Below are positions 7,917-29,200 of a DNA stretch of 64,000 nucleotides, piece after piece. The notes under the pieces are model-generated. The model saw nothing but the letters and a program-made list of their open reading frames with translations, was not told the DNA's origin and did not search any database. The translations under genes and the position numbers were made by a program. The first letter of the stretch is position 1, and each line of letters starts with the position of its first letter. Source of the stretch: Trypanosoma brucei (Eukaryota); contig CH464491.1 in NCBI GenBank assembly GCA_000002445.1, forward strand, positions 2,208,001-2,272,000, given 5' to 3'.

Positions 7917-8900
7917 ATGTCTAATGTTGCTTTTGACTCGGGGCACTCTGCCAACATTACTGATGCTGCGGTAGATACGTCGGGAAAGTTGGTGGCATCC
8001 TCTGGAGAGGATGGAACCATTCGCATTTTTGCCGTTCAGTCCGCCCCCCATGACGAAGGGAGCGAGAACGTTGACAGTGACTGGAAACTACTCACTGTTC
8101 TCGCTGGTCATACGGGAAGTGTGGTGTGCGTGGCATGGGCGCCTCCGCAGCACTACATCTCAGCCCTTCTTTCTTGTGGGGAGGATGGCCAGGTGATTTT
8201 GTGGAGTGATGTTGGGAACGACTCGCGGGAATGGACAAAAGTATACACGGCCGCACTCCCATCGCCCATATGGTGCGCTGCTTGGGCCCCGCCAGCTTAC
8301 GGTAAGATGTTCGCTGTTGGATGCAAAAATGGAGCTGTTGTTATCTTTACTGGTGAACTGCAACGGTGGGAACGCAGTGAGTTTAGTGCCCATCGCAGTG
8401 GTTGTTTTTGCCTTTCGTGGGGCCCGTCCATGCCACCAGGGGCGTTGTTTACATTGCCTCTGGAGGAAGACCCGCAAGCACTGCGATCACAAGATCAACA
8501 ACCGGGCCTGCCGATCGCTCCACCGCGTATTACAACGTGCGGAGGGGAGCGCGTCGTGACGGTGTGGACTCGAACTGCGGATGGCTGGCAGCCATTGGAG
8601 TTGCCCGTAGGGGTTGAGGCATCATGGAGAGAAGTAGCGTGGGCACCCGGGCTTGGGACTCCTTATACGTACATCGCTGCTGGTTCTGAAGAGGGTTTCG
8701 TGGCGGTGTGGTCGCATGACGGCACACCTGTGGGAGAGTGGGTCCGCGTGTTATTATGTCAGCAAGAGGATAGTATAACGAAACTTTCTTGGTCGCCTGT
8801 GGGCACCTTTTTGCTAGTGTCTTGTGCGAACGGAACCGCAAGCATGTGGCAGGAGTCAGCAGGGGGACAGGAGTGGGAACGTTCGTGTAAGCTACCTTAA
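7917..8900 (+). CDS. SEC13: Sec13-family WD40 protein (COPII coat / nuclear-pore outer-ring component)
   Basis: The 327-aa product has the characteristic Sec13 repeats: LAGHTGSVVCVAWAPPQHYISALLSCGEDGQVILWSD, IWCAAWAPPAYGKMFAVGCKNGAVVIF, and a C-terminal LSWSPVGTFLLVSCANGTASMWQES matching the Sec13 motif VSWS...LAVSGGDNKVTLWKES. Confidence 0.78.
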   Translation: MSNVAFDSGHSANITDAAVDTSGKLVASSGEDGTIRIFAVQSAPHDEGSENVDSDWKLLTVLAGHTGSVVCVAWAPPQHYISALLSCGEDGQVILWSDVGNDSREWTKVYTAALPSPIWCAAWAPPAYGKMFAVGCKNGAVVIFTGELQRWERSEFSAHRSGCFCLSWGPSMPPGALFTLPLEEDPQALRSQDQQPGLPIAPPRITTCGGERVVTVWTRTADGWQPLELPVGVEASWREVAWAPGLGTPYTYIAAGSEEGFVAVWSHDGTPVGEWVRVLLCQQEDSITKLSWSPVGTFLLVSCANGTASMWQESAGGQEWERSCKLP

Positions 8901-10644: not shown

Positions 10645-11304
10645 ATGATGTACATTCGTACCTTCGGTGACATGCTTCACCTCCTGGCTATTTTTATTCT
10701 ACTAGGAAAGATGCTGCGGGGGCGTTCTGCTGCGGGTCTTTCTCTTAAAACGCAATTTCTTTTTGCTCTTGTCTTCACGACGCGGTACCTTGACCTGTTT
10801 TTGTCCTTTATTTCTGTGTACAACACCATGATGAAGATATTTTTTCTCGCAACCTCGTGGCATATTTGTTACCTAATGCGTTGTAAAAGCCCGTGGAAGA
10901 CAACCTATGACCACGAGAACGACACCTTCCGCATCCGTTACCTGATCATTCCCTCGTTTGTTCTCGCCCTTCTTTTCAACGGTCACCAGCATGGCATGTG
11001 GGTGATGGACGTGTTATGGGCATTTTCGCAGTACCTGGAGTCTGTGGCTATTCTACCACAAATCTTCTTACTGGAATATACAGAACGCTACGAAGCACTC
11101 ACATCGCATTACCTCGCCGCCATGGGTGCCTACCGCCTCTTTTACCTTATACATTGGATTGCTCGCTATTTCGTGCACGGAAGCGTTAATGCTGTCTCTG
11201 TGTGCGCTGGCGTGCTTCAGACAGTGTTGTACGTTGACTTCTTTTACCACTACATCAGCCAGGTTGTGTGGCGCGCTAAGCAGCGATATGATTTGGCGCG
11301 ATGA
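10645..11304 (+). CDS. ERD2: ER lumen protein-retaining receptor (KDEL receptor, ERD2)
   Basis: The 219-aa product has seven transmembrane segments. Its N-terminus FGDMLHLLAIFILLGKMLRGRSAAGLSLKTQFLFALVFTTRYLDLF matches the ERD2 consensus GDLSHLAAI..LL.KIW.TRSC.GIS.KSQ.LFALVFTTRYLDLF. Confidence 0.92.
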   Translation: MMYIRTFGDMLHLLAIFILLGKMLRGRSAAGLSLKTQFLFALVFTTRYLDLFLSFISVYNTMMKIFFLATSWHICYLMRCKSPWKTTYDHENDTFRIRYLIIPSFVLALLFNGHQHGMWVMDVLWAFSQYLESVAILPQIFLLEYTERYEALTSHYLAAMGAYRLFYLIHWIARYFVHGSVNAVSVCAGVLQTVLYVDFFYHYISQVVWRAKQRYDLAR

Positions 11305-12676
11305 AATGGGTATCGTTATGAGCACGGCATGATTTGTTTCGACTTTGTTGTACATGCACTTGGATATCCACGTGAATATGTATGTTCGTAATGGAGACAA
11401 GCAGAGGAGAATCAGGCAACGGCGGGAAGAAGGTGTTGTATTATTGCTGCGACTCGGGAAACGAGGTAAGAAGGGGCTGGAGGTGAAGGCGAGGTGAAGA
11501 GGGAAAGTGATGGAGGAGTTAGCGTGGAAGCTGGAATTGTCGCGCCATGTGGTGCATTAGAGTGAAGGAGGGTGGCCGCTTGTAAGGGACTGGAGAGATA
11601 CGGAACATGAACACTGTGAGTAGAATAGAGATATTGTGGGAATCATGAATGAGGAGTGTGCATACGAGTTGGCGTGTGTGATTAGGGGTTTGTCCTTATT
11701 ATAAAGAGGAGGGGCCGGTGCTGCAATCACCATTCAGGGATCTTCTTGCATCCTACTGAAAATACAGAGCGGATTTGTTAACGAAGTTTTGCGTTCAAGC
11801 CATTTAAGTTAGATCCCTCACCGTACGCCCTGTAGTCATAGGGAAAGTCGAGCAGATTGCAGCGGAAGATGTTTTATTGAGCACATTCCTTCGTTTGCTT
11901 TCACTCAAGCACTGATGGCTGTGGGAGCGAGGGGGATTAAGAACATGCCGCACGCGGGGGGGGGGACTGTTTTTTTTTTTTCACACCAAATGTCGGTCAC
12001 GTTCCGAAACGGATGGACCACCTTTCAGTTTTGTGTTTGGTTTTGGCACACCGGGCGTTGGTTTGGATCTGCATTATGGTAATGTACTGAGTGCTACCAA
12101 ATGCGCCTTGTGTCCTGCTGTCTTCTCATTTATGTCGTTTGCTGCTTCGTTTAAGTTTTTTTTTGTTAACGAATGCATACTTGCGAGCCCGCCTCCCTTT
12201 TGTACAAGCATGTCCTTCGACCCCAGCTTGACGCGGTACTAATAGGCTTTCCTTATCTGACTCTTTCTGTCCTATTGAGACATTTTCAGTCGTCCTGCTT
12301 CAAATGTGACGTGCCCGTACGTTACTCGTAGATATGACCCCCTTCCCCTTTTCATATTGCCAACTTAAAAGTTTTCGGGATAGAAAGAGACTGTGGAGAA
12401 TGGTACTGTTGCGGGATGGGGTCAGTTCTTCTGTACGTGGGGCCTTCACATCAACTGTGTAGTTTCAATGCACACGACTGCTGTTGCAAAACTTGGACCA
12501 GAATTGCCACTGTTATCTTTGTTGCTTTATCACGGTTTCTGTCTCACTATTTCCACTTCTCTTTCGCTCCCCCTCTTCTCGTTTTTTAGTCGGTTGTGTT
12601 GTCTTTCTCAGCTTCAGGGGGAGAAAGGAGAACGGTAGCATCAACCGCCACCTTGGGTGTGCGGACCTTTTCAGTT

Positions 12677-15600
12677 ATGAACAATTATCATATTTACGAC
12701 GAAATTGGAAAGGGCCGCCACAGTCGTGTCTATAAGGGGCGACAGAGAAAGTCGATAGAGTACTATGCGATATCGTCCATAGAGAAATCGCAGCGGCAGC
12801 ATGTGCTCACAAACGTAAAATTCCTTCGGTCCTCAAATCACCCCCGTATCATCAAGTTTCACAACTGGTACGAAACAAACAATCACCTGTGGGTTATTAC
12901 CGAACTTTGCACAGGGGGAGACATGCGGCAGGTGTTACATCCAGAAAGTCGCCTGTCAGAGGCAGCTGTCCGCTTGTATGGTGGGGACATTGCGGAGGGT
13001 CTCATGTACATCCACTCACGTGGAGTTGTGTACCGTGATTTAAAGCCGTCTAATGTCCTTATGGACTCCACCATGGCAATGCGGTTCTATGATTTCGGAC
13101 TTTCGTGTAACTTTCCCGTAAACTGTGGAGGTGGCACGATAGGGACTGCGATGTACATGGCCCCGGAACTCTTCATGAAGGAGGGCGTGCCGTCCATTGC
13201 ATCCGACTTGTGGTCTTTTGGATGCGTGCTGCTGGAGATGAGAACTGGAAAACCCCCGTTTGATGCCGATAACTTGGAAGAACTAATTACACAAATTCTC
13301 ACGGAACCATATCATCCCCACGAGGAGCTTTCTGATGAGCTGAATGAGCTACTCGGGAAGTTGCTAGTGAAGAACCCTCTAGAACGGGCAACGTGGGAAG
13401 ATGTTGTATTGAGCCCTTTTTGGCAGGGTCGACTGCATATGCCTGCCGCCCCTCACCCACCCCAACCTGCTTTTGAGAGTTTAAAACAGAAACGGCTCGC
13501 TTCTGATGGGGGAAAGGGTGACTTTGTGATGACACTAGAGGAAGCCAAGAAGGCGGTAGAATGGACTGTAGAGGTTGCGAAGCGCAACTTTATTCTCACG
13601 CAACCCGACTCTGATGGATCCGCGCTGATATGTCTGGGTGTGTACGATCGCATTGACACAAGAGACCTCACTGGAGAAGGTGAGGGTGTTCGCGACCCTA
13701 CGTCAGGTTCACTGATAGGGGATGGAAATTCGTGTGCCTCCCCCTCGTCTTGTGTAGCCCGGGTGGGCTGTGACAGCAACGCGGGGCGGCAAGGTGACGG
13801 CGCAGCACAACGGGAAGGCGATCACAACAGGGAGATGGTGAGCGATATTGGTACAGCCGTTGGTGGTAACGCCGCAAAAAATAGCAACGTGAAACAGTTG
13901 GTAGGCGGAGGTAAATTCAGTACTGCTCTTATCGATAGCCTGTTGAGCCATGTATCAGACGCGCACGTTAGGCCGCTGGTTATGAATAATCACATCGAGC
14001 GGTTTGTTGAACAAAAGTATGATGCCAAAGCTCTAGGCTTCGAGCCGCTGACGAAGAGTCAGTTGAAAGCTTACGATGAAGAACAAAAGGCTCGCTTTGT
14101 GACGAAAGTGTACCAGAGACTATCGTCATCCTCTTTGTCTTGCGAAGACAAGCTGAATGTACTCTGTTACTTTGAATCTATATGCTCGGAAAGTTCTACC
14201 GCCAATTTTGTTGTGAGCAGCTCGATCATGACGTTGTGTCTCAATATGGCCGGCCATCGCAAAGCTTCTTCTAGCTTCCGTGCCACGGCAGCGTCCATCA
14301 TGGGCATTCTTGTCCGGCATGCCACATTTATACACCCGGATCTCGCCAAGGTTAATATCCTTGCTTCAATAGTGAAAATGTACGCTGAGGAGGAGAGTTC
14401 TCGAGTACGGCGTAAGTTGGTTGCATGCTACGGCGAGTTTCTCATCTATATAGCAGTGCAGCAAGAGCGGGAGCGTGCCGTGTGGGGCGTTGACGTTCCC
14501 GCCACCTTCAATCTATACAGGAGCCTTTTGAACGACCCGGACGATGTGCAGAAGCACTACGCCATCAAAACCATCGAAAATCTGGCATCGGTGGGTAACC
14601 GCCAAATCGCACTTGACGCCTTCGTGAATGCGGAAACGATTTCCCTGTTGCTCTCTATACACGCGTTACCTCCAACGCCAACTTGTGGTGAATATATGCG
14701 AGCTGCCGCAGCGTGCACGGCTCTGAAACTTGCGATGCTCCGGGAGGAACTCATACCTGCTGTGCTGGAGTCCCCATACCTAAAGCTTGAAGCGTATGGT
14801 GGTGTACTTGCTGCACCTAGTCCAAAATTGGCACAAGCGTTGTTGACGTTTGTAAACATGACGTTAGTTAAGGGGATGGTGGGGTTACGGCACGCAAACA
14901 TTACAAAGCTTGGGAAACCAGATGCAACAAGCCCTTTCGCCTCTTCGCGGCTTACGGGAGACAAGGCGAAGGGGGTGCTGACCGCACTTAGTGGGGTCGC
15001 TGAGGCAGTTGTGCGCGGGCTTCGTAACGGCAGTGAACACGCTACAACAGCGATGAAGGGAAAAACGTTGGTGTTGTTTATTCTCTTAGGATGCATGGAC
15101 GAGCAGCTACTGGTAAGGTTCTTCACTTCATCCCGGTGTGTTGCGTACGCCGATGGTATAGCGAAGGACAAGGACAGCTACGTGCAACGTTGCACACAGG
15201 GCTTTGCTGTGTACCTGAGTTATTTCTTCGGTTCACAGTTGGAAGGATTGACTCACGGGGCACCGTCCTTCATGATGAACAACGTCCCCAGTGCTCTGTG
15301 TAACCTATTAGGTACTAGGCACTTGTCCTCTATGTTGCAGCTAAATGATAAAGTCTTTTCCAGTATTGGGAAGTGTCTTGTGATGGTGTCCTCGTCGTCA
15401 CGCTATGCTGCTGCTGGAACGAATCTCCATGAATTGGTAGAGCTACTAGCGCAGAATCGCGAGTTAGTGTTGCGCCACCGTCTTGTTATTTCGAGTGATA
15501 TTTTTCCACCATATTTGAGCATGCTGGCCGAATCTGAGAGTGAGCGCCGTTTCCTATCGTTGCGAATCCTTAGAGCGTTGATTGTCCCTTTTGGCTCAGA

Positions 15601-16438
15601 GTCATCTCGTCAGAATGAGGAAGCACAGAAAGAGGGTGCGATGTTGGACCGTGTGATGCAGGTGGTAGCTGGTATGCTGGGTGATTTGCTGAAGGAGGTT
15701 GAGCCCATCCCTGTTCATGGTATCGGATTGTTGGCAACGTGCGGCGAGAGGCGACCCAAGACGCTTGCCAACCTTGCGACTGTGGAGCTCATAGGCGAAC
15801 TGGTTCGGTACATGATGCGATCGAGGCAGAGCGGTGTTTCCAGTCCACTACAACTGGTCATGCTAGCACTACAGACGGAGCGCGGTGGCGTTCTGATGGA
15901 TTACCTTGCAGAGCAGAACTTTCCTGTGGAGGTGCTGCTGAACATTTTGGTGATGGCTGTGGAGAAGGAGGTGGATAATCTGCTGGAACCGTGCTGTGAA
16001 CTCTTTGAACATTTCCTAAAGCAGGCGGTAGCTAATCCCAACGCTGCTGCATTACGCCAGTCAGTTATGTCCGTCGCACCACGGGCCCTGGAGACGCTGT
16101 GGCTCCCTCTGTGCACTTCTCCTGTTGGTACCACTGCAAAGAGTGCCGCGGCGTGTGTGTTGTATTTTACGCAGCTTTCTCCAGAAGTGGGGCAGGAATT
16201 GCTCTCTGATGGTAACGTCCAATACATACGTGAGGTTTTGGACAAGTGTCGAAGTCCTGGAGCGGTTGTGTGTGTTATACGTACCCTACGTCTCATTCTT
16301 GAACGAGGTACGAAGCACGACGCGCAAAAGCTCATGCCCTGGCTGCTTGGCTCACTGGAGGCTGCTGAGCAAGACCAAAAATGCGGTGGCATTGTTGCTT
16401 TGGAAATTAGGGGTATTAAAGAACTTTTACGTCCCTAG
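12677..16438 (+). CDS. ULK4: ULK4 ortholog: N-terminal (pseudo)kinase domain plus a long HEAT/ARM-repeat C-terminus
   Basis: The N-terminus YDEIGKGRHSRVYKGRQRKSIEYYAISSI...IIKFHNWYETNNHLWVITELCTGGDM is co-linear with human ULK4 [27 protein letters not shown]...[26 protein letters not shown]. About 1000 aa of helical repeats follow (LNVLCYFESICSE matches ULK4 LNLLCYLCVVAGH). I chose the ATG at 12677 (MNNYHIY) as the likely start; the listed ORF extends upstream to 12596, and total length is similar to human ULK4 (1275 aa). Confidence 0.88.
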   Translation: MNNYHIYDEIGKGRHSRVYKGRQRKSIEYYAISSIEKSQRQHVLTNVKFLRSSNHPRIIKFHNWYETNNHLWVITELCTGGDMRQVLHPESRLSEAAVRLYGGDIAEGLMYIHSRGVVYRDLKPSNVLMDSTMAMRFYDFGLSCNFPVNCGGGTIGTAMYMAPELFMKEGVPSIASDLWSFGCVLLEMRTGKPPFDADNLEELITQILTEPYHPHEELSDELNELLGKLLVKNPLERATWEDVVLSPFWQGRLHMPAAPHPPQPAFESLKQKRLASDGGKGDFVMTLEEAKKAVEWTVEVAKRNFILTQPDSDGSALICLGVYDRIDTRDLTGEGEGVRDPTSGSLIGDGNSCASPSSCVARVGCDSNAGRQGDGAAQREGDHNREMVSDIGTAVGGNAAKNSNVKQLVGGGKFSTALIDSLLSHVSDAHVRPLVMNNHIERFVEQKYDAKALGFEPLTKSQLKAYDEEQKARFVTKVYQRLSSSSLSCEDKLNVLCYFESICSESSTANFVVSSSIMTLCLNMAGHRKASSSFRATAASIMGILVRHATFIHPDLAKVNILASIVKMYAEEESSRVRRKLVACYGEFLIYIAVQQERERAVWGVDVPATFNLYRSLLNDPDDVQKHYAIKTIENLASVGNRQIALDAFVNAETISLLLSIHALPPTPTCGEYMRAAAACTALKLAMLREELIPAVLESPYLKLEAYGGVLAAPSPKLAQALLTFVNMTLVKGMVGLRHANITKLGKPDATSPFASSRLTGDKAKGVLTALSGVAEAVVRGLRNGSEHATTAMKGKTLVLFILLGCMDEQLLVRFFTSSRCVAYADGIAKDKDSYVQRCTQGFAVYLSYFFGSQLEGLTHGAPSFMMNNVPSALCNLLGTRHLSSMLQLNDKVFSSIGKCLVMVSSSSRYAAAGTNLHELVELLAQNRELVLRHRLVISSDIFPPYLSMLAESESERRFLSLRILRALIVPFGSESSRQNEEAQKEGAMLDRVMQVVAGMLGDLLKEVEPIPVHGIGLLATCGERRPKTLANLATVELIGELVRYMMRSRQSGVSSPLQLVMLALQTERGGVLMDYLAEQNFPVEVLLNILVMAVEKEVDNLLEPCCELFEHFLKQAVANPNAAALRQSVMSVAPRALETLWLPLCTSPVGTTAKSAAACVLYFTQLSPEVGQELLSDGNVQYIREVLDKCRSPGAVVCVIRTLRLILERGTKHDAQKLMPWLLGSLEAAEQDQKCGGIVALEIRGIKELLRP

Positions 16439-17200: not shown

Positions 17201-20200
17201 TTGCCGATGCTTCAACACTTTCTCCGTCCTGAGGTGTTGGGAACCACCGGGAAGGACGAAGAAAATGGAACGAAGGACCACCAACCCGGCCAGCAAAGGC
17301 CGACGACTTCCAGGCTTGACTCACAGTCGCTAACAGCCACCGACACTGTAAGTGAGAGACCCAAGACAGCGGAACCACTGGACCTTGTTTCAATTAGTGC
17401 CACCTACAAGGAGACGGCTGTTCTCTTTCCTGATGCCCACCAGGCGGCATTCGAACCAAAGGTGCAAGTGCCTTTTGAGTTCCAGCGGGGGCGTATCCCA
17501 CGTGAGATTGAAATAGAGCGCCGCCGCCGACTATACGAATCGAAAGATGTAAGCCGCCTTGTTCAGGTTGCAGGGTTAACGCTGAAACTTTTAGCCCACA
17601 AAAGTAGCCAGGAGCTACCCCTGCAGGTATTCGACGATACGTCGTACGATAGTAGAATCCCAGCCGAGTGGATGGAAATTGCAGCGCAGAATGAGAACCC
17701 CGCTGGTCGCTACCTTCCCGCCGAAGGAATATACGAATTCATGAACTCCGATTTCCGCATGCGGCCCTGCCGTGTTATCGGTTGGGACGTTGCCAGGAAT
17801 GAGGTGAAGTTACTCTGGGGCGCCAAACCTGTACCGGACGAAACGCCCGTTGTTGTGCCACGTTTCCACGTGCGCCTACTGGCGGAGGACCCCGTTGTGT
17901 ATGTGGAACGCCTCGTGAATGCCCAAAAGCAGCGTGTGAAGGCTATGGCTTGGATTCGCTACCGTTTGTGCTGTGACGCGATGCCTACGGATGGTCTACC
18001 CGGGCTAGATTCCAATCTCAGTGATCGGCTTCTACGTCTTGGCACTGGAATTCCAAACTTAAACAAAGCTGTTTTCCCTGATGTCGATGAGCGTGCCCAG
18101 CGCCTCATAGCCGAGTTAACACTGGAATGGCAGCGCAGTCACAATCGTATCCTCCTACAGGATCTGATGCAGCGTGACGAGTCAACATTGCGTATGGTGG
18201 CTAATACAACACAAATGAGCCTGCAGGAGTTGGTGCGAGGACCAAATGTAGAGATCCGACGGACTATCAAGTCAGACCCAAGTTCTGTAATCCCCATTGG
18301 TGACTTTGACTTCGCAGAAAGAGAAAGGTCCTTTACTTTTTCAACCTATTACACTCAACCAGAAGTGGTGACAGCGCTGACCGGGGTCCGAAGCGAGTGT
18401 ATGAAGGTTTTGGAGGGGAGTTTGTTTAACCTTCCGAAGGCCCGCCAGATGCAGCTGTCAGAGTTTCAAAAGCTGCAGAGGGACCACATGGCAGCAGTTG
18501 AAAAATATCTTAAAGGAGAATGGACGGAAAACATATGTAACGTGATTAGGAACAGCTTTGTTTCCGCGGGAAAGGGGTGGCTGAACGTGCACGAGTCAAA
18601 GCAGGAAATATATGAGATATCGAAGTTGAAGAAGTTTTTTACGACTGTGAAGTTCATGATGGAAGACACGTTGTTTGACCTCGTTTACACTTCGTTGCAG
18701 GATTTTACTGTCTTTTTTGAGGAGGTATCAGAGTTTACAGTTAATGTGATAGACATGAACAACGTGGAGAACAAGTGGCCTGGAAGTGATGCCGATGACT
18801 GTGTGGAGAAGCAACCGCTGTTTACCATTAGGCTTGCCGAACAGGACGGGTCGTTTACCTACAGCATTTCCTTCAAGGACTTTGAGGAAGCAATCATTGA
18901 CCTCTTTTTTAGTGCCATTCAGTGTACAGATGCCATTCCACAGGTGGAAAAGTTTGTGATGTCGCAGTATTTCTGGCGACGTGAAGGTGAAGGGCCGTTT
19001 TTAGACTCCGTGAAACAACAGGAAGAGCGAGTTTGTTTGTTACGAGACCGCGTGCGCCATGCGCTGCAGAATTCGATGAAACCACTGAGGGACTACCTGC
19101 AGACTTATGATGATCTGCTACCATTGGTTCGTCTCGATAAAAAGGTGTTCATCACAGAGTATGCTGCGCAGGAGCACACCATGGAGGAGATGAAGGAGGA
19201 GATTCGCGCCCATTTGAAGGCGAAGAAAGTAGTGGCACAGAAGCTCCCTGCCTTTATTACAGTGGGCAATTATGTTGTGGACTGCCAGTCATTCGGCCAG
19301 ATTATGGCTAGCAAGGAGCATGAACTCGCGAAGCTTGTGATGAATCTCATATGTAAGATTGCCAAGACCAAGACATCGTACATCCGCGAGGAGTTCACCA
19401 AAATTGTGCGAGTAGTGGAGAAACAACCCCAGACCCCTGAGAAGCTGTACGAGCTGAAAGCTATAATTGTCAACACACCTGAGCGCATCTCCGAACTCTC
19501 TGCTGAAATCGAGGAGATGCGGCAGTACTATAATGTGCTTGATGGTTTTCAGTATGAGCTTAGTGACGAGGAATCGCGGCAGAAGTGGGAGGCCATCAGT
19601 TGGCCACGACAGCTGACACTGCGCATACAAGAAACCAACAAGCAGCTAGAGAAAGTGGAGGAAGAACTCCATGCCCGTCTCCAGAAAGAAGCCGAAGAGT
19701 TCAGCAAGAAGGTGGATGCTCTGCAACGTGTTGTGGCGACATTCTCCAAGTATACCGACGCTACAGAGGCAGAGAAGGTTGCGGCAGAGGTGAAGGTGAA
19801 CAGTATTGAGATCCGTAAGTGCATTGAACAGGCCCGCTCGATTAACAGTGATCAGCGCCTCTTTGGCGATAAGCTCACGGACTACCGTAGTGTGTTTGAG
19901 CTAGAAAAGGAGTTTAAGCCGTACAGTGATTTGTGGCTAACCACTTACCAATGGCAAGACTGTTATCGCCGCTGGCACGCTGACCCATTTGATTCTCTGG
20001 ACCATGAAGAAATTGATACAGTGGTGACAAACGCCTTTAAGACGATGACACAATTGTCCAAGACGTTCAAGGATAAGAATGCAACGCTAAAGATCGTGTC
20101 GGAGATTCGGGGTAAGGTGGAAGCGTTTAAAAAATGGGTCCCGATTGTAACCTCTCTGCGCCAACCTGGCATGAAGGAGCGCCACTGGAAGGGCCTTTCA

Positions 20201-23200
20201 GAAAAACTAAACTTGCCTCTCGTCCCAGGTGAAACGATTTTGCTCATGGAGGACCTTGAGCCTCTGCTTGGTTTTAAGGACGTTATTGTTCCTCATTGCG
20301 AGGTGGCGGCGAAGGAAGCACAAATTGAGAAGGCGCTTAAGGACATGCGGGCCAAATGGGAGAGCAGGGTATTTATAATTGAACCGTACAAGGAAAGCAA
20401 TACTTACATAATCAAAGATTCGTCTGAGATTGTTGAGTTGCTGGATGAGCACCTCAACTTGACACAGCAACTGCAGTTTTCTCCCTTCAAGGCATACTAT
20501 GCAGAGGCCATCACCGATTGGGAGCGCTCACTCAACCTTATTTCCGATATCATTGAGCAGTGGTTGGAGTGTCAGAGAGCTTGGCGTTACCTTGAGCCGA
20601 TCTTCAATGCCAAGGATATTGCACTTCAATTACCCCGTCTTACAAAGCTGTTCGATCGCGTTGACAAGACATGGCGTCGCGTCATGGGAACTGTCCATCA
20701 TCAACCCAACGTTCTGGATTTCTGTATCGGAACAAGCAAGTTACTGGAAAGTTTGCGAGAGTCTAATCGCATTCTTGAGGAGGTGCAGCGTGGGCTCAAC
20801 GATTACCTCGCAGAGAAGCGCCAGTCGTTCCCCCGCTTTTACTTCCTTTCGGATGAAGAACTGCTGGAGATCCTTTCGCAGTCCAAAGAGGTTCGACGCA
20901 TTGACGCTCACATTAGTAAACTATTTGAGTTCATACAGCGCCTCTCGTGGACGGAAAACAACGAGATCAATGGGTTTTTCAGTGGTGAAGGAGAGCATGT
21001 ACCAAGCGTTAACGTGGTGTACCCCGAGGGTAACGTGGAGATGTGGCTAGGTTCGGTTGAAACTATGATGAAGGAAGCTGTGGCTGAGCAACTACGTCAA
21101 TCCTTCTATGCGTATAGCAATACCCCGCGTGCAAAGTGGGTTCTTGAATGGGCGGCTCAGTGCGTCATCGCCGTGTCACAAATCTTCTGGACGAATGGTT
21201 GTGAGGAGGGCTTGGTGGCTGAGAAAAGTGTGGAAAACTATTTTCGGGTGCTTGAACATCAACTATTTGAGCTAGTTGATGTTGTACAATCACCCCTCAA
21301 TGCGCGGGAGCGCATCAACATGGGTGCCCTCATCACCGTTGAGGTTCATGCAAAAGACACAGTTGAGGCCATGACGCGGCACAAGGTTGACTCGATACAG
21401 TCCTTCGAGTGGATCAAACAGTTACGCTTTTATTTTGACACTGACGATCGGATGTGCCACATCAAACAGGTAGACGCCCACTTTGTGTATGGCGGTGAGT
21501 ACCTTGGCAACACTGGACGGTTGGTTGTAACCCCACTCACTGACCGTATCTACCTAACACTTACAGGAGCCTTGGCTCTGTGCCTTGGCGGTGCACCTGC
21601 AGGACCTGCGGGTACAGGTAAAACAGAAACGACCAAGGACTTAGCCAAGGCACTTGCTAAACAATGTGTTGTGTTCAACTGTCAAGAAGGTATGACCTGT
21701 CTGTCTATGGCCAAATTCTTCAAGGGACTTGCGTGGGCCGGTGCTTGGGCGTGCTTTGATGAGTTTAACCGTATTGACGTTGAGGTGCTTTCCGTTGTGG
21801 CCCAGCAGGTGACGGACCTGCAGCAGGCCTGCGTGACGAAACAGTACCGCATCGTCTTTGAGGGGAGTGAAGTAGTTGTTGACCCCACTCACGCAGTGTT
21901 CATCACCATGAACCCCGGTTACGCTGGCCGTACCGAGCTCCCAGATAACTTGAAGGTGCTATTCCGTCCCGTTGCTTGCATGGTTCCCGACTACGCCATG
22001 ATTGGTGAGATAAGGCTCTTTTCGTATGGGTACAAGAAGGCTCGTAGTTTGGCGCAGAAAATGGTTATGACATTCAAACTGAGTTCTGAGCAGCTGTCGT
22101 CTCAGGATCACTATGACTTTGGTATGCGTGCGGTGAACACTGTCATTTCGGCTGCAGGTCTAAACAAGCGGGAGAATCCCAACGAAGATGAAGATTTGTT
22201 ATTGCTTCGTGCACTGCGTGATTCCAATGCGCCCAAATTCCTCAGAGATGACATTATATTGTTTGAGGGTATTATCAGTGATCTGTTCCCAGGCACGAAG
22301 CTCTCCCCCACTGAGTACGGCGTCGTTGTTGACTCCCTTCGTCAGGTTGTTACAAGCAGTCAACTTCAACCGGTCCCAGGCTTCATAGAGAAATGCCTGC
22401 AGTTATACGATGTCACAACCCTTCGGCATGGTCTGATGCTTGTGGGCCCTGCAGGTAGTGGCAAAACCATGGCGTACACCTCGTTGCAAAAAGCTCTTTC
22501 AGGGTGCTCTGTAATGCAGAGTAAGGGGCAGGATGTAGGTGCTCGTGATTACATGAAGGTGTTCACGCACATTTGCAATCCAAAGGCTGTCACTATGGAT
22601 CAGCTATACGGTGCCTACGACGAAAATGGTGAATGGAAAGACGGTGTGCTCTGTGTTCTCTTCCGTCGGGCAGCCAAGTACGGTGATGAAGGTAATCAAA
22701 TAGGGAAACACTGGGTTATGTTTGACGGTCCTGTGGATGCTCTGTGGATTGAGTCCATGAATACTGTCCTGGATGAGAACAAGAAACTTTGTTTGGTATC
22801 GGGTGAGATCATTCAAATGAGTCGCGACATGACGATGATGTTTGAGGTGGAGGATCTTGCCGTTGCGTCGCCTGCCACGGTTTCTCGTTGTGGTATGATT
22901 TACATGGAGCCAACAGCCTGCGTACCAACTCAAGCTCTCACGAAGTCGTGGAAGGAGAGACTCCCCAAATATGTGGCTCCGCAAGCGGATTACCTCGAGC
23001 AACTTGTCGAATTGTACGTTGATGAGCTCATCGAGTATGTGCGTGCCAACCTTAGGGAGTACGTTCCGTCGACAAATGTTATTCTTGTGCATTCATTCTT
23101 TCGTATGATGGATGGCTATATAGAGTCATTTGGCGGTTTACCGGGGCAGCGCGGGCCACCAACCCTCAGTCCGGAGCGACTGGAGATTATGGCAAAGTGC

Positions 23201-26200
23201 ATCACGCCCCTGTTTTTCATGGCGATCACTTGGAGTATCGGAGCAACCTGTGATGAGGTGGGACGTGAGAAGTTTGCCGATATGCTTCGCGAAATGGCAA
23301 CGCGTAATAATCACGCCGACTCCCTGCCGGAATCAGGAAGTGTGTACGACTACTGCTTTGTGTACTACCCGTCGCCAGATGATGATGAAGAGGCCCGATG
23401 GACACACTGGGATGAACTGCGTGCGACGTGTGATATTGCTCGCACGACAAAGTTCGAAGACGTATTGGTACCGACGATTGATAACACCCGCCAGAAGTAT
23501 GTGCTGACACATCTGTTGGAACGGAAGGTCAACGTGGTCGCTGTGGGCCCCACAGGCACGGGTAAGAGTGTGGCGGCTGGCGGTTTGGTAATGAACGGTA
23601 TATCCGATCGCTTGCTTGGCCTTGCCTTCTCTTTCACACCACAGACAAAAGCGGGCGTGTTGCAGGACTCTCTCATGTCAAAGTTTGATAAACGCCGTTC
23701 GCATGTCTATGGTGCTCCGGTTGGCAAACACTTCCTTGTGTTTATTGATGACGCTAATCTTCCACAAAAGGAGCGCTATGGTGCTCAACCACCACTGGAA
23801 TTACTTCGACAACTCCTTGGTCATGGAGGTTTGTACTCATTTGTTGGTGGTATCAAGTGGAACTTGGTTATCGACACCTCTTTTGTTATGGCCATGGGGC
23901 CACCCGGAGGAAGTCGCACACAGGTGTCTAACCGTCTCATGAGGTACTTCAACTATGTTTCATTTCCCGAGATGTCGGAGGCATCCAAACGTACCATCCT
24001 TAATACAATTCTTAAGGGGGGTTTGCACCAACGAGGTGTCAAAGAGGAGGTTGTTGATTTCATAACAAACCTTGTTGATGGGACTCTGAATGTTTTCAAA
24101 CGCTGCCGCAAAGCTTTTGTTCCAACTCCATCGCACGTACATTACTCGTTCAACATGCGGGACGTCATGCGTGTGTTTCCCATGATTTACATCAACGACA
24201 CTAACAGTCTTCCAAACAGAGACGTTCTCCTGAAGCAGTGGGTGCACGAAATGCAGCGCGTCTTTTGCGACAGACTCATATGTAACGAGGATAGAGAGGA
24301 GTTCCTTTCTTTCATTGATGATGAGATAATACAGATTGGTTATGAAGGTGGTTACAAGTCGTTGCTACCTGACGGCAGGCTTATTTTCGGTGACTTCATG
24401 TCCACGGGGGAACGTAGTTATCAGCAGATTACGGACATGGATGCACTAGCGGCTTTTTTTAATGAACAGCTCCTGGCTTACAACAATGCGAATGAAAATC
24501 CTATGGGCTTGGTGCTGTTCCTTGATGCCATTGAGCACGTTTGTCGTATTACACGTGTTTTGAGCATGCCAAATGGTCACTGCCTTTTACTAGGAATTGG
24601 TGGGTCAGGTCGAAAGTCTCTAACCCGCTTGGCGTGCTTCCTCATTCCTGAGATGGACGTTTTCACTATTGAGTTCACAAAGAACTTTGGTGTGAAGGAA
24701 TGGCGGGAGGCGTTAGCTCGTTTACTGTTGGATTGCGGAAAGGACGGAAAGAAGCGCACGTTCCTATTCTCTGACACGCAAATCATTAACCAGACTCTCA
24801 TGGAGGACGTTGCGGCGCTGCTGACCGCTGGCGATGTACCCAACCTTTTTGAGGACCAAGACATAGAAATAATCAATGAAAGGTTCAAAGGAGTATGTAT
24901 GAGCGAGAATCTGCCCACGACGAAGGTTTCTATGTACGCACGGTTCATCAAAGAAGTGCGTTCTAACCTCCATATAGTCTTAGCGTTCTCACCTATCGGT
25001 GAAGTCTTTCGAACACGACTGCGTATGTTTCCCGCGCTCATTACTTGTTGTACTATTGATTGGTTTGCTGAATGGCCTGGTGAGGCCCTGCTTTCCGTGG
25101 CAAGAGCGCAACTGCAAAGCGCAAAGGGGGATTTGGGTGATGATGAGGGGGACAGACTCTCCAGGTGCTTTAAATCGCTGCATTTATCTGCTGCGGAAAC
25201 AACGGAGAGGTTCTTTGTTGAAACCCATCGACGTTCTTACATTACGCCCACGTCTTACCTGTCTCTGCTGAACACGTATATTTCCCTCGTGGAATCCAAA
25301 CGTAAGTTCGGGCGTGAGCAGGCCAGCCGTCTCGAAAACGGATTGGAAAAGTTGTATGATACCGAGGTTCGCGTCGTCGAGCTTGAGGGGCAGTTGAAGG
25401 CGCAACAGCCAGTGTTGGAGATGAAGAAGTTGGAGATCAGAGGCATCATGGAGAAGCTCCGCGTAGACCGCAAAGATGCAGCAGAAAAGGAGGCCTCAGC
25501 ACGTACAGAGGAGGTGGCCGCGACGACAAAGGCAGAGGAATGCGCTAGAATGCGCCGTGAGTGCGCTAGCCGCCTCGCTGAAGCTGAACCCGCACTTCAA
25601 GAGGCTGTTAAAGTTCTGTCAAAGATCAAGGCCGCGGAAATATCTGAATTGAACAAGTACCAGAACCCACCGAAGGGTGTGCAGTATGTTATGGAGGCCG
25701 TTGCACTCCTGCTAACGTTTGGCAACTGCCCCAAGGAATTCTATAGCGGCCCTCCCGGGGGGAAGAAAACGCCAGATTGGTGGTTGTGTGCCAAGTCGTA
25801 CATGAAGAACGCCAACCAACTTCTTGATACACTGGTACAACCCCCTGGTAAGGGAGGGTTTGACCGAGAGGCGATGGACATGCCTCTCATTGAAAAGGTG
25901 CGTACATACTATGAAAATGATGAGTTTCAACCAGAGAAGGTGAAGAGTGTTTCTGTACCTTGTATGGCTATGTGTCAGTGGGTGCGTGCAATGTACAAAT
26001 GGTTTTTTGTAAACCGTGAGATTCAACCACTGCGCGAACGACTTGCGGATGCCGAGAGGGAATTGAAGCGTGTCAATCGAGCCCTCGCCGAAACCCGTAG
26101 GAAACTTGATGCTGTCGTAGAAGCGGTCGCAAAACTTGAGAAGGAATTTGAGGATGCCATGGCCACCCAAACGGCATTGGAAAATGAGGTTGAGCAGACA

Positions 26201-29200
26201 AGTGAGAAACTACAGCGTGCTGCCCGCCTTATTGCCGGACTTGGGGGTGAGAAAGTCCGATGGAAAGAGCTTGTGGAACAGTATAAAGTGAAAGACACTT
26301 GTGTTTCGGGAGATATGGTGATAGCTGCTGCATCGATCGCCTACTTCGGCCCCCTTACTGGTCCGTACCGCAAACATCTTCTGCAAACATGGTCTGCCTC
26401 GCTTGCGGAGTTGGGTATCAAAACTAGCGAGAACAGCGATTTGTTATCAACCACAGGTGACGCAGTTCAAATACACGATTGGCAGCTTTGTGGCCTGCCA
26501 AAGGACCCACTGTCGACAGAGAATGCGATCATTTTGTCAAATGCGCGGACGTGGCCACTACTGATTGACCCTCAAGGACAGGCAAACTCGTGGATCCGGA
26601 ACTTGCACAAGGATGACAATTTGCAAGTATGCAAGGCATCGGACGACAAATTCATGAAGACGGTGGAGGGCGCTATCCGGCTAGGTCTTCCATGCCTGTT
26701 GGAGAATGTTGGTGAGTCTCTTGACCCAGCATTGGAGCCAGTTCTTCACCGCAACGTGTTTCTTATCGGTTGCACTCCGCACATACGTGTCGGCGATTCG
26801 GCTATTCCATACAACGAGAAATTCAGGTTATACATGACAACGAAGCTGCCTAATCCATCATACACTCCGGAAACCATCGTCATCGTGTCTCTTCTGAACT
26901 TCTTCATTACGCGAAGTGGACTGGAGGATCAGATATTGGCAAGAACAGTGGAGAAAGAGCGGAACGATTTGGAGCAGGAGAAGCAAAGGTTAACCCGAGA
27001 TTGTGCGGAGAAAAACAGAGAGCTAAAAGAGTTGCAGGAGAACATTCTACGCATGCTAGAGGAGGCGGAGGGAGATATTCTTGATCAGGAAGAGCTTATC
27101 GACGCTCTCGAAAAGAGTAAGCTAAAATCCACTGAAATTAGCGAAGATCTTGTACGTGCCAGAGCGACGGAGGTCACCATTGATGAGACGCGTAATAAGT
27201 ACCGTCCACACGCCTACCGGGGTGCACTGCTCTTCTTCTGTGTCTCAGAACTTTCCACTGTGGACCCGATGTATCAGTTCTCGCTCCAGTGGTACATAAA
27301 CTTAGTCTTACTCGCAATTGAGAACACAGAGGCGGCGGTAGATATTGAAGAGCGCGTTGAAAAACTCATTGAGTTCTTCACGTACTCTTTCTACACAAAT
27401 GTCTGCCGTTCCCTGTTTGAACGCCACAAGCTTACCTTTTCTTTTTTTCTGTGTACCTCAATTCTGCAGCAGCAGGACGAACTTGACGGCAACGAATATC
27501 ATTATTTGCTGACTGGTCCAACCGGAAGCGGCGGGGAGGAACCGAATCCTGCTCCAGATTGGTTAACAGAGAATTCATGGAATGAAATACAGTTCGTTTC
27601 GTCAAATCTCCCCAACTTTGCAGGTTTCGCTGAACACGTAACCCAATGTATTAACTACTACAAGGAACTCTTTGACAGCCTTAATGCCCACACGTACCCG
27701 CTTGCGGCGGAGTGGCAGGGACGGGAGACTCCCTTGCAGCGTCTTGTTGTCGTCCGATGCTTCCGAAGGGACAAGGTGGCGTCTGCTATTCAGGAATTCG
27801 TTAAGCACTATATGGGTGAGCGATTTATTATTGTCCCACAGTTTGACCTCATGGATGCATACAAGGATAGTACGTGTCTTACACCACTTATCTTTATTAT
27901 CTCACCAGGTTCTGATCCTATGAATGATCTTTTGCGCTTTGCTGAGCATATGCGCATGTCGAAGAAGTTGGACAAGGTGTCCCTTGGTCAGGGTCAGGGG
28001 AGGAAGGCGGAGGAGTTGCTCAGCAATGGTCGAGAGCGTGGTCAGTGGGTGCTGCTTCAGAACTGCCACTTGGCAACGTCGTGGATGCCGACGCTGGAGG
28101 CTATTGTGGAGAGTTTTACTTTGGAAACTGTGCGAAAGGAGTTTCGGTTGTGGCTCACTTCAATGCCCTCTGATTCTTTCCCCGTAGCTGTGCTGCAGAT
28201 ATCTGTCAAGATGACGAATGAACCACCCATGGGTCTTCGTGCTAACGTGACACGGTCGTACTATGGGCTAACTGATGATGATCTTGAACACCCAACGAAA
28301 CCCAACCAGTTTAAGAAGATGGTTTTTGCATTCTGCCTATTCCATGCCGTCATTCAGGAGCGTCGCAAGTTTGGTTCTTTGGGATTTAACATAGCTTACG
28401 AGTTCAACGACTCTGATCGTAATGTGTGTCTTCTCCAGCTGCGTAAATTCATATCGCTCTATGAGGATGTGCCTTTCGATGTCCTCACTTTCCTTACTGG
28501 TGAGATTAATTACGGAGGGCGTGTCACGGATGATTGGGATAGACGCTGCATGATGGCTCTTATTAAGGACTTCATTACTCCAGGAGTTTTAGAAGAAGGT
28601 TATTCTTTCTCTCCATCCGGTACATATCACACGGTAGAGGCGTGCTCTCGGGCCTTCTATCTCGATTACCTCGGCACGTGGCCGCTTAATCCCGAACCCG
28701 AGGTGTTTGGACTAAGTGACAATGCGGATATTACATGTGCCCAAAGCGAGAGTGCGAGCATATTGGCTACCATTCTCTCACTTGTCTCGCGTGAAAGCTC
28801 GGGATCGTCACATCAGAGCCGCGAAGAGATGCTGATTAAAACGGCTCAGCACATCATGGAGAAGCTGCCTCCGACGTTTAACGTGCAGGAATTCCACGCT
28901 AAGTATCCTACAAAGTACGAAGAATCGATGAACACAGTCCTTGTGCAAGAAGCCGTGCGATACAATCGCCTCCTTCGCTTTGTTCAGAAGTCTCTTTCAG
29001 AGTTTTCTAAGGCTGTTCGTGGTGAGGTAGACATGTCAGCCGAGTTGGAAGCTGTTGGTTCAAGTTTCTTCATTAACGCCGTTCCTGCATCGTGGGCTGC
29101 GCTGGCGTATCCTTCTTTGAAGCCTCTTTCGAGTTGGGTTGAGGACCTTCTGAGGCGCGTGCAATTCGTGCAGTCATGGTACGATAAGGGTATGCCGAAT

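What the first reader, a model, noticed from the sequence alone, without database searches (positions are those of the whole stretch)
12677..16438. ULK4 ortholog: catalytic lysine lost but YRD and DFG motifs retained
Human ULK4 is a pseudokinase that lacks the VAIK lysine, the HRD aspartate context and the DFG motif. In this ortholog the beta3 lysine is likewise absent (YYAISSI instead of VAIK). However, the catalytic loop is nearly canonical (YRDLKPSNVLM) and DFG is intact (YDFGLS). This intermediate state suggests either residual or atypical phosphotransfer, or conservation of an ATP-binding scaffold. It makes the trypanosome protein a useful comparison for the evolution of pseudokinases.
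Basis: partly seen in the sequence, partly recalled or inferred. Interest (0 to 1): 0.5.

Follow-up and report, generated by a model that had tools for sequence, protein, structure and literature searches.

The report
Trypanosome ULK4 pseudokinase gene, already described
This gene is the Trypanosoma brucei copy of ULK4, a flagellum-associated kinase-like protein; the missing catalytic lysine is real, but it is shared by all kinetoplastids and already published, so the finding is correct but ordinary.

Summary
Window 12677-16438 (+) is a 1253-aa ORF with an N-terminal protein-kinase domain and a C-terminal ULK4-type HEAT domain. It is 99% identical to the T. b. gambiense orthologue. McCoy et al. 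2023 list the T. brucei gene as FCP5/TbULK4, Tb927.11.8150.

In 120 homologues the Lys and Glu are kept or lost together. All sampled kinetoplastids, including Bodo saltans, lack both. A diplonemid and Euglena longa keep both. The loss therefore dates to the kinetoplastid stem and is independent of the metazoan one.

The "near-canonical" remainder is not conserved in close relatives:
- T. congolense has NFG and KPSS.
- T. vivax has YRN and DFS.
- Leishmania has DLQTRN and DFS.
- The family norm is YCD, so the R of YRD is derived rather than retained.

This fits a non-catalytic, probably nucleotide-binding scaffold that partners the active kinase Fused/STK36 at the flagellum. It fits residual catalysis poorly. 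A motif alignment that includes TbULK4 (McCoy 2023, Fig. 1B) and a class of pseudokinase protist ULK4s (Preuss 2020) are already published. Low interest.

The parts
12677..16438 (+). Complete CDS of the T. brucei-group ULK4 orthologue (listed for T. brucei as FCP5/TbULK4, Tb927.11.8150), 1253 aa plus stop
   Evidence: ORF. It is 99% identical (9 substitutions) to T. b. gambiense P0001. The exact protein is found on NCBI contig CZPT02001585.1. The gene identifier comes from the Fig. 1 legend of PMC10295485; I did not compare the window with the TREU927 sequence itself.
12686..13420 (+). Kinase-fold (pseudokinase) domain, aa 4-248
   Evidence: Pfam PF00069, E 1.7e-56. AlphaFold2 model pLDDT 92, pTM 0.92. 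Best fold matches are human ULK4 6u5l and 6tsz, TM 0.79-0.85.
12707..12730 (+). Glycine-rich loop GKGRHSRV (G11, G13, S16, V18)
   Evidence: G11 and G13 are invariant across the 60-sequence family alignment. S16 occupies the position of the WNK beta2 lysine, by my own alignment to WNK1 from memory.
12773..12775 (+). S33 (TCG), the position of the VAIK/beta3 catalytic lysine (PKA K72); the lysine is lost
   Evidence: The alignments to MARK1 and to human ULK4 carry no gap in this segment. S in 10/10 Trypanosoma; A, L, S or M in 29 further homologues that lack the lysine; K in the other 81 homologues. The predicted beta3 strand spans residues 29-36.
12785..12796 (+). K37-S-Q39-R40 at the N-terminal cap of alphaC. 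K37 is invariant family-wide. Q39 occupies the position of human K39, which replaces the VAIK lysine in ATP binding.
   Evidence: K37 is invariant in 60/60 and 120/120 sequences. The predicted alphaC helix runs 37-52. The role of human K39 is from Preuss 2020.
12812..12814 (+). N46 (AAC), the position of the alphaC glutamate (PKA E91); the glutamate is lost
   Evidence: MARK1 alignment. N in 10/10 Trypanosoma, S or C in other kinetoplastid-type sequences, E in 79/81 lysine-retaining ULK4s.
13031..13054 (+). Catalytic loop YRDLKPSN (D121 = PKA D166, K123 = K168, N126 = N171), intact in this species
   Evidence: Not conserved in relatives: YGD in most Trypanosoma, YRN in T. vivax, KPSS in T. congolense, YNDLQTRN in Leishmania.
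13091..13099 (+). DFG motif (D139 = PKA D184), intact in this species
   Evidence: T. congolense has NFG, T. vivax DFS and Leishmaniinae DFS or DFC.
13091..13168 (+). Short activation segment, DFG to APE, 26 aa, with no helical insert
   Evidence: The length is 26 here, against about 33 in plants. Preuss 2020 report a mean of 49.6 in metazoans. DSSP on the model finds no helix in residues 142-161, where 10-residue block-mean pLDDT is 74-78 (residues 141-160).
15182..15763 (+). ULK4-type HEAT repeat region, aa 836-1029
   Evidence: Pfam PF23606 HEAT_ULK4, E 4.1e-22, above the gathering score.

Best explanation
The locus encodes the T. brucei-group ULK4 orthologue (named FCP5/TbULK4 in T. brucei). 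Its N-terminal domain is a well-folded kinase-like domain that lost the beta3 Lys / alphaC Glu pair (S33, N46) in the common ancestor of kinetoplastids.

It most likely does not phosphorylate substrates. It most likely acts as a pseudokinase scaffold or allosteric partner. The conserved N-lobe surface and nucleotide pocket would hold the domain in an active-like shape, probably with bound nucleotide. In that shape it would bind and stabilise or activate the true kinase Fused/STK36 (FCP6) at the tip of the growing flagellum (the flagella connector). The C-terminal HEAT repeats would dock other partners.

The intact YRD...N and DFG residues in T. brucei are leftovers that have not yet drifted, or that serve Mg-nucleotide binding. 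They are not evidence of catalysis.

Shown here: gene identity, the motif states, their phylogenetic distribution and the predicted fold. Taken from the literature: localisation, the Fused interaction and the flagellar phenotype. Inferred: nucleotide binding and the absence of catalysis.
For: 1. ULK4 identity: Pfam Pkinase plus HEAT_ULK4; best sequence and fold matches are human ULK4.
2. Lys and Glu are lost together. Across 121 sequences, 79 have both, 39 have neither and 3 are mixed.
3. All sequences named as kinetoplastids, including Bodo saltans, lack both. The diplonemid Artemidia motanka and Euglena longa have both.
4. Constraint on the remaining catalytic residues is relaxed. Among 10 Trypanosoma sequences, D121 is kept in 8, N126 in 9, D139 in 9 and G141 in 8, although 44% of kinase-domain sites are invariant. 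Leishmaniinae have Q at the K168 position and DFS or DFC. In the 81 lysine-retaining ULK4s, D121 is kept in 81, K123 in 80 and N126 in 79.
5. The domain as a whole is under strong constraint. Kinase-domain identity to other Trypanosoma is 62-75%, against 50-60% over the full length.
6. The ULK4-specific N-lobe residues named by Preuss 2020 are conserved: R22, F61, W64, E66, L71. So are most of the adenine-pocket residues of the human ULK4-ATPgammaS structure: V18, A31, E76, C78, L128; the sixth, L33, is S33 here.
7. Literature: LmxULK4 is called a pseudokinase because it lacks the VAIK lysine. It interacts with LmxFused through its N-terminus, depends on Fused for stable expression, and its knockout phenocopies the Fused knockout. 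TbULK4 and TbFused localise to the flagella connector (PMC10295485; PMC7902614).
Against: - No biochemical test of TbULK4 exists. McCoy et al. state that pseudokinase status was 'not directly tested'.
- In T. brucei itself D121, K123, N126, D139-F-G, GT and APE are all intact. The catalytic machinery other than the Lys-Glu pair is therefore formally complete.
- Some kinases without the canonical lysine are active (WNK).
- The residues human ULK4 uses for its unusual ATP binding (K39, R125, K126, N139) are not present here (Q39, S125, N126, D139). Nucleotide binding cannot simply be transferred from the human structure.
- The T. congolense NFG/KPSS state rests on a single database sequence.
Confidence: 0.72

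Rival explanations
1. TbULK4 is an atypical but active kinase. Phosphotransfer would survive loss of K72/E91 because another basic residue positions the ATP phosphates. Candidates are K37 or R40 at the alphaC N-cap, or R14 in the G-loop. This would resemble the displaced lysine of WNK kinases or K39 in human ULK4.
For: T. brucei keeps D121, K123, N126, DFG, GT and APE. K37 is invariant, and position 40 is always basic apart from one His (R in every kinetoplastid-type sequence). Both sit at the start of alphaC in the model, next to the position of human K39, which contacts ATP phosphates. The model has an ordinary active-like kinase fold and a short activation loop that does not obviously block the substrate site.
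Against: K37 and R40 are equally conserved in ULK4s that still have K33, so they did not arise as compensation. The WNK position is S16, which is invariant. Sister species have lost D121 (T. vivax and the unidentified Trypanosoma-like sequence P0010), D139 and N126 (T. congolense) or K123 (Leishmaniinae). Catalysis therefore cannot be the conserved function of the clade. The alphaC glutamate is lost as well.
Confidence: 0.1
2. TbULK4 is a nucleotide-free scaffold, a pseudokinase that no longer binds ATP at all. The pocket residues would be conserved only for fold stability.
For: Both partners of the Lys-Glu salt bridge are gone. The compensating residues of human ULK4 (K39, R125, K126, N139) are absent.
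Against: G11 and G13 are invariant and A31, E76, C78 and L128 at least 90% conserved in the 60-sequence alignment; V18 is V/I/A in the kinetoplastid-type sequences. All except V18 keep that conservation in the lineages that lack the lysine. N126 and D139, the Mg ligands, are kept in most kinetoplastids (38 and 36 of 39). Human ULK4 binds ATP tightly without K72 and needs it for stability.
Confidence: 0.15
3. The missing lysine is an artefact: a misalignment, a sequencing error or a wrong start codon.
For: None found.
Against: The alignments to human ULK4 and to MARK1 have no gap in the beta3 segment. The AlphaFold2 model places beta3 at residues 29-36 with pLDDT above 90. S33 is encoded by TCG, at least two changes away from any Lys codon. 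It is shared by 10/10 Trypanosoma orthologues from independent assemblies. The ORF length equals that of the annotated orthologue.
Confidence: 0.01

Closest known systems
Leishmania mexicana ULK4 (LmxM.28.0620) and T. brucei FCP5/TbULK4 (Tb927.11.8150), as described by McCoy et al. 2023 (PMC10295485), Baker et al. 2021 (PMC7902614) and Varga et al. 2017 (cited in PMC10295485)
   Same: By the gene identifier in PMC10295485 this is the same gene (TbULK4) or its direct orthologue. The architecture is the same, and so is the loss of the VAIK lysine, which those authors used to call it a pseudokinase. Their Fig. 1B is a G-loop/VAIK/HRD/DFG motif alignment that includes TbULK4.
   Different: Leishmania has gone further: K168 is replaced by Q, it has DFS, and the catalytic loop is YNDLQTRN. 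RNAi of the T. brucei gene gave only a moderate growth defect (PMC3894213) and did not affect flagellum assembly (PMC10295485), unlike the Leishmania knockout.
Human ULK4 pseudokinase domain (PDB 6TSZ and 6U5L; Preuss et al. 2020, Khamrui et al. 2020)
   Same: It is the best sequence and fold match. Residue numbering is identical through the DFG position. Both lack the beta3 Lys and the alphaC Glu. K37, R40, the hinge residues E76 and C78, L128, F140 and the ULK4-specific N-lobe residues are conserved. Both have Fused/STK36 as a proximity or interaction partner, according to the literature.
   Different: Human ULK4 has FCD-ISPRK and NFC, and binds ATP without metal through K39, R125, K126 and N139. 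Here those positions are Q39, S125, N126 and D139, which is the canonical Mg-ligand set. The human and metazoan activation segment is long (mean 49.6 aa per Preuss 2020) with a helix that props alphaC. Here it is 26 aa with no predicted helix. The two losses are independent events.
ULK4 orthologues that retain the catalytic lysine: plant RUNKEL/RUK, Tetrahymena, diplonemid, Euglena
   Same: Same domain architecture, the same YxDLKPSN catalytic loop, DFG and K37.
   Different: They keep K33 and E46 (79 of 81), and most have YCD rather than YRD.
WNK kinases (active despite lacking the beta3 lysine)
   Same: They lack the canonical VAIK lysine while keeping the catalytic loop and DFG.
   Different: The WNK substitute lysine lies in beta2 of the G-loop. 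By my own alignment to WNK1 from memory, the equivalent residue here is S16, which is invariant in the family. WNK membership was not otherwise tested.

Membership tests
ULK4 (Unc-51-like kinase 4) orthologous group | N-terminal kinase-fold domain followed by C-terminal ULK4-type HEAT/armadillo repeats | tested here: met
   PF00069 at aa 4-248 and PF23606 HEAT_ULK4 at aa 836-1029, both above the gathering score.
ULK4 (Unc-51-like kinase 4) orthologous group | The kinase domain is closer to ULK4 than to any other kinase of known structure | tested here: met
   By sequence, ULK4 6u5l and 6tsz score E 3e-50, against 1e-36 for the next family, MARK. The top Foldseek hits are 6u5l and 6tsz.
ULK4 (Unc-51-like kinase 4) orthologous group | ULK4-specific N-lobe constraint residues (R22, R23, K24, I27, F29, F61, W64, E66, L71 in Preuss 2020) | tested here: met
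   F61 and E66 are invariant. R22, W64 and L71 are at least 90% conserved and present here. I27 is present and F29 is replaced by Y29. The basic stretch is RQRK, residues 22-25.
ULK4 (Unc-51-like kinase 4) orthologous group | Functional partnership with Fused/STK36 and ciliary or flagellar localisation | not testable with these tools
   Literature only: PMC10295485 and PMC7902614.
Pseudokinase (sequence definition) | At least one of the beta3 Lys, the catalytic-loop Asp or the DFG Asp is missing | tested here: met
   S33 replaces the lysine, and N46 also replaces the alphaC Glu.
Pseudokinase (functional definition) | No phosphotransfer activity | not testable with these tools
   Supported only indirectly, by relaxed conservation of D121, N126, D139 and G141 in sister species.
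Metazoan-type ULK4 ATP-binding mode | K39, R125, K126 and N139 coordinate the triphosphate without metal; FCD and NFC motifs | tested here: not met
   Q39, S125, N126 and D139; YRD and DFG.
Metazoan-type ULK4 ATP-binding mode | Extended activation segment with a helical insert (LEEFFALVAAEE) that packs on alphaC | tested here: not met
   The activation segment is 26 aa. No helix is predicted between residues 142 and 161.
WNK-type displaced catalytic lysine | A lysine in beta2 of the glycine-rich loop substitutes for the beta3 lysine | tested here: not met
   By my alignment to WNK1 from memory, the equivalent position is S16, which is S in 118 of 120 family members.

The most novel reading that the evidence does not exclude
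T. brucei-group ULK4 alone among kinetoplastid ULK4s keeps a complete Mg-ATP catalytic set apart from the Lys-Glu pair. It might retain weak or atypical phosphotransfer, or ATP hydrolysis. The family-invariant K37 or R40 at the alphaC N-cap would substitute for the beta3 lysine. That would make it a naturally occurring 'K72-less' enzyme within a clade of dead orthologues.
Probability: 0.08. Interest if true: 0.45.

Novelty: already known. Interest (0 to 1): 0.15.

Why it matters
The finding matters little as it stands. The gene is annotated and named. Its missing VAIK lysine has been published as the basis for calling kinetoplastid ULK4 a pseudokinase. The idea that ULK4 lost catalytic residues several times independently is also in the literature.

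This check adds three modest refinements:
- The Lys-Glu pair was lost once, on the kinetoplastid stem. Diplonemid and euglenid orthologues still have both residues.
- The remaining catalytic residues are drifting in sister species, which argues against residual catalysis.
- Kinetoplastid ULK4 lacks both the metazoan compensating residues and the activation-loop helix. If it binds ATP, it must do so differently from human ULK4.

The third point makes it a reasonable comparison case for pseudokinase structural biology, but not a surprising one.

Tried and rejected
- Displaced-lysine hypotheses. K37 ('EK') is invariant in ULK4s with and without K33, so I rejected it as a relocated catalytic lysine, although a supporting role is not excluded. 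The WNK-type beta2 lysine is rejected because the position is S16.
- Residue 39, the site of the human compensating K39. It is Q here. It is R in 19 of 39 lysine-less sequences against 18 of 81 lysine-retaining ones. That enrichment is too weak and too phylogenetically confounded to interpret.
- A second database search seeded with the human ULK4 N-lobe. It returned mostly short vertebrate fragments. These were enough to tabulate metazoan motif states but not to build a balanced eukaryote-wide tree.
- Side-chain geometry. The structure tool returns no coordinates, so I could not measure distances from K37, R40 or R14 to the nucleotide site, and no ATP docking was possible.
- Cluster look-up. 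It named only the EukProt sequences among the ten queried. The taxa of the Logan/ENA environmental lysine-less sequences among them (P0010-P0012, P0015, P0032, P0034, P0045) remain unknown, and the other unnamed ones (e.g. P0013, P0016, P0018, P0031, P0047) were not looked up.
- Literature search for Tb927.11.8150. It found only the kinome RNAi screen and McCoy et al. I found no biochemical study of TbULK4.
Full report
**What is there.** Window 12677-16438 (+ strand) is one uninterrupted ORF of 1253 codons, ending in TAG at 16436-16438. The mechanical ORF list starts at an upstream GTG (12596). The first ATG is at 12677, and the product length equals that of the annotated orthologues. A stop codon lies in frame 29 codons upstream (12590-12592). 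A polypyrimidine tract ending in AG (about 12545-12589) precedes the ATG, as expected for a trypanosome trans-splice acceptor; that reading is my inference. Every ORF of 250 aa or more in the 64-kb window is on the + strand, which fits a kinetoplastid polycistronic unit.

**Gene identity.**
- The protein is 99% identical (9 substitutions) to a T. brucei gambiense DAL972 'protein kinase, putative'.
- The exact sequence occurs on NCBI contig CZPT02001585.1 of assembly GCA_001457755.2.
- McCoy et al. 2023 give the T. brucei gene as FCP5/ULK4, Tb927.11.8150 (PMC10295485). I did not compare the window with that strain's sequence directly.
- Pfam finds a protein-kinase domain (aa 4-248, E 1.7e-56) and the ULK4-specific HEAT domain PF23606 (aa 836-1029, E 4.1e-22).
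- Among all PDB sequences the best matches are the two human ULK4 pseudokinase structures, 6u5l and 6tsz (E about 1e-50, against 1e-36 for MARK kinases).
- An AlphaFold2 model of residues 1-300 built on 60 homologues is confident (pLDDT 92, pTM 0.92). Its best Foldseek matches in the PDB are again 6u5l and 6tsz.

**Checking the observation.** The N-lobe through the DFG-equivalent position aligns to human ULK4 without gaps, so the residue numbers coincide up to that point. I verified each motif at codon level:

| Feature | T. brucei residues | Window nt | Human ULK4 |
|---|---|---|---|
| G-loop | GKGRHSRV (11-18) | 12707-12730 | GRGSKTVV |
| beta3 lysine position | A31-I-S33-S (S33 = TCG) | 12767-12778 | L33 |
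| alphaC N-cap | K37, Q39, R40 | 12785-12796 | K37, K39, R40 |
| alphaC glutamate position | N46 | 12812-12814 | W46 |
| Catalytic loop | YRDLKPSN (119-126) | 13031-13054 | FCDISPRK |
| DFG | D139-F-G141 | 13091-13099 | NFC |
| APE | 162-164 | 13160-13168 | APE (canonical, per Preuss 2020) |

- S33 aligns with the VAIK lysine of MARK1 and with L33 of human ULK4.
- N46 aligns with the alphaC glutamate of MARK1 and with W46 of human ULK4.
It omits that the lysine's salt-bridge partner is lost too.
- The model places beta3 at residues 29-36 and alphaC at 37-52.

**Distribution across the family.** I aligned the first 340 residues of the 120 best homologues with the window protein, MARK1 and human ULK4, then read off the key columns.

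1. The Lys and Glu go together. 79 sequences have both, 39 have neither and only 3 are mixed.
2. Every sequence named as a kinetoplastid lacks both. This covers nine named Trypanosoma species or subspecies, Bodo saltans, Leishmania, Leptomonas, Porcisia and Novymonas. Position 33 is S or A, and position 46 is N, S or C.
3. The nearest canonical relatives were identified by cluster look-up as the diplonemid Artemidia motanka (P0037) and Euglena longa (P0042). Both have AIKS or AVKS at beta3 and NEV in alphaC.
4. The pair was therefore lost on the kinetoplastid stem, after the split from diplonemids.
5. Metazoan ULK4 fragments from a second search show a different and deeper degradation. Position 33 is L, I, V, H or Y. 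Position 46 is W, H, R, L, N, S, T or Q. The N171 equivalent is K in most of them, and DFG is NFC or SFC in most.
6. The kinetoplastid state is thus a parallel loss, not an intermediate on the way to the human state. This agrees with Preuss et al. 2020, who recognised 'Pseudo Protists/Plants' alongside 'Pseudo Metazoans'. [quoted passage not shown]

**Are the 'retained' motifs meaningful?** The retained catalytic residues are not conserved among close relatives.

| Lineage | Catalytic loop | DFG region |
|---|---|---|
| T. brucei (window) | YRDLKPSN | DFG |
| T. congolense (60% identical overall) | YRDLKPSS | NFG |
| T. vivax | YRNLKPSN | DFS |
| P0010 (unidentified sequence, 50% identical, placed with Trypanosoma) | YGNLKPSN | DFS |
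| Most other Trypanosoma | YGDLKPSN | DFG |
| Leishmaniinae | YNDLQTRN | DFS or DFC |

- Among 10 Trypanosoma sequences, D121 is kept in 8, N126 in 9, D139 in 9 and G141 in 8.
- Yet 44% of all kinase-domain positions are invariant in the same set. The catalytic positions are therefore no better conserved than a typical site.
- In the 81 lysine-retaining ULK4s, D121 is kept in 81, K123 in 80 and N126 in 79.
- The 'nearly canonical HRD' is also not an ancestral retention. The family norm is Y-C-D (C in 64 of 81), most Trypanosoma have Y-G-D, and R120 appears only in T. brucei, T. congolense and T. vivax.
- The kinase domain is nonetheless the best-conserved part of the protein. Its identity to other Trypanosoma is 62-75%, against 50-60% over the full length.
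- The ULK4-specific N-lobe residues (R22, F61, W64, E66, L71) are conserved across the family, lysine-less lineages included. So are the adenine-pocket and hinge residues of the human ULK4-ATPgammaS complex: A31, E76, C78 and L128 are at least 90% conserved, and V18 is V, I or A.

**Mechanism.** The pattern is a constrained fold, surface and pocket with unconstrained catalytic residues. That is what a scaffold or allosteric pseudokinase should look like.

The literature supplies the partner and the phenotype:
- In L. mexicana, ULK4 and the predicted active kinase Fused/STK36 phenocopy each other: short, unstable flagella.
- The two proteins interact through the ULK4 N-terminus, and ULK4 stability depends on Fused (PMC10295485; PMC7902614).
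[quoted passage not shown] 2017, as cited).
- RNAi of Tb927.11.8150 gave a moderate bloodstream-form growth defect (PMC3894213).

I therefore commit to a non-catalytic, probably nucleotide-stabilised scaffold that regulates Fused, with confidence about 0.7.

If nucleotide is bound, the mode should differ from the human one. The human compensating residues K39, R125, K126 and N139 are Q39, S125, N126 and D139 here, which is the canonical Mg-ligand set. The metazoan activation-loop helix that props alphaC is also absent: the activation segment is 26 aa and no helix is predicted. This contradicts the suggestion in Preuss et al. that such a helix is likely to be general to ULK4s lacking the beta3 lysine, although their Fig. 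2C probably already showed the length difference.

**Rivals.**
- Residual or atypical catalysis (about 0.1). It cannot be excluded for T. brucei specifically, because only the Lys-Glu pair is missing there. But K37 and R40 predate the loss, the WNK position is serine, and sister species have lost further catalytic residues.
- A nucleotide-free scaffold (about 0.15). This is possible, but pocket conservation argues against it.
- Artefact. This is excluded.

**Novelty.** The finding is already known. The gene is named. McCoy et al. Fig. 1B is a G-loop/VAIK/HRD/DFG alignment that includes TbULK4. Preuss et al. scored the K72, E91, D166 and D184 equivalents across ULK4 orthologues. The refinements added here are small: the loss dated to the kinetoplastid stem, drift of the other catalytic residues, a derived R120, and the absence of the metazoan compensations.

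Noticed in passing
window 17207-29665 (+): The next gene downstream is a dynein heavy chain of about 4152 aa, with Pfam DHC_N2, AAA_6/7/8, MT and other dynein domains. ULK4, a flagellum-tip protein, thus sits next to a dynein heavy-chain gene in the same transcription unit. This is probably coincidental in a polycistronic genome.
   Followed up: partly
window 1-64000: All 16 ORFs of 250 aa or more are on the + strand, and cumulative GC skew rises steadily. This fits a single kinetoplastid polycistronic transcription unit. Upstream neighbours include a WD40 beta-propeller protein (7917-8900) and an ER-lumen-protein (KDEL-type) receptor (about 10646-11305).
   Followed up: partly
window 12545-12589: A polypyrimidine tract ending in AG lies about 90 nt upstream of the ULK4 ATG. 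It looks like the trans-splice acceptor region. An in-frame stop at 12590-12592 confirms that the ORF cannot extend much further upstream.
   Followed up: no
homologues P0048, P0049, P0050, P0062 (including Chlamydomonas reinhardtii and Pleodorina starrii): Chlorophyte ULK4s keep K33, E46 and YCDLKPSN but have GGFGL in place of xDFGL. The DFG aspartate is lost while everything else is kept. This is a third, independent route of partial active-site erosion in the ULK4 family.
   Followed up: no
homologues P0032, P0033, P0036 (unnamed Logan assemblies): Environmental ULK4s that are 33% identical to TbULK4 over 94% of the query (P0032; P0033 and P0036 share the motifs) carry FYAILSTDKCRR around beta3. 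This is strikingly like human FVAILCTDKCKR: Leu at position 33 and the same TDKC context. It looks like convergence, and the source organisms are unknown.
   Followed up: no
window 13124-13126 and 13175-13177 (aa 150 and 167): Two of the nine differences from T. b. gambiense lie in or beside the activation segment: C150 versus R, and M167 versus T. The other seven are at aa 336, 339, 409, 662, 825, 1084 and 1098.
   Followed up: no
window 42001-44000, inside ORF 40698-44747 (+): This stretch has an unusually high GC skew (0.20) and AT skew (0.19) compared with the rest of the window. That suggests a compositionally biased or repetitive coding region in this 1349-aa ORF.
   Followed up: no
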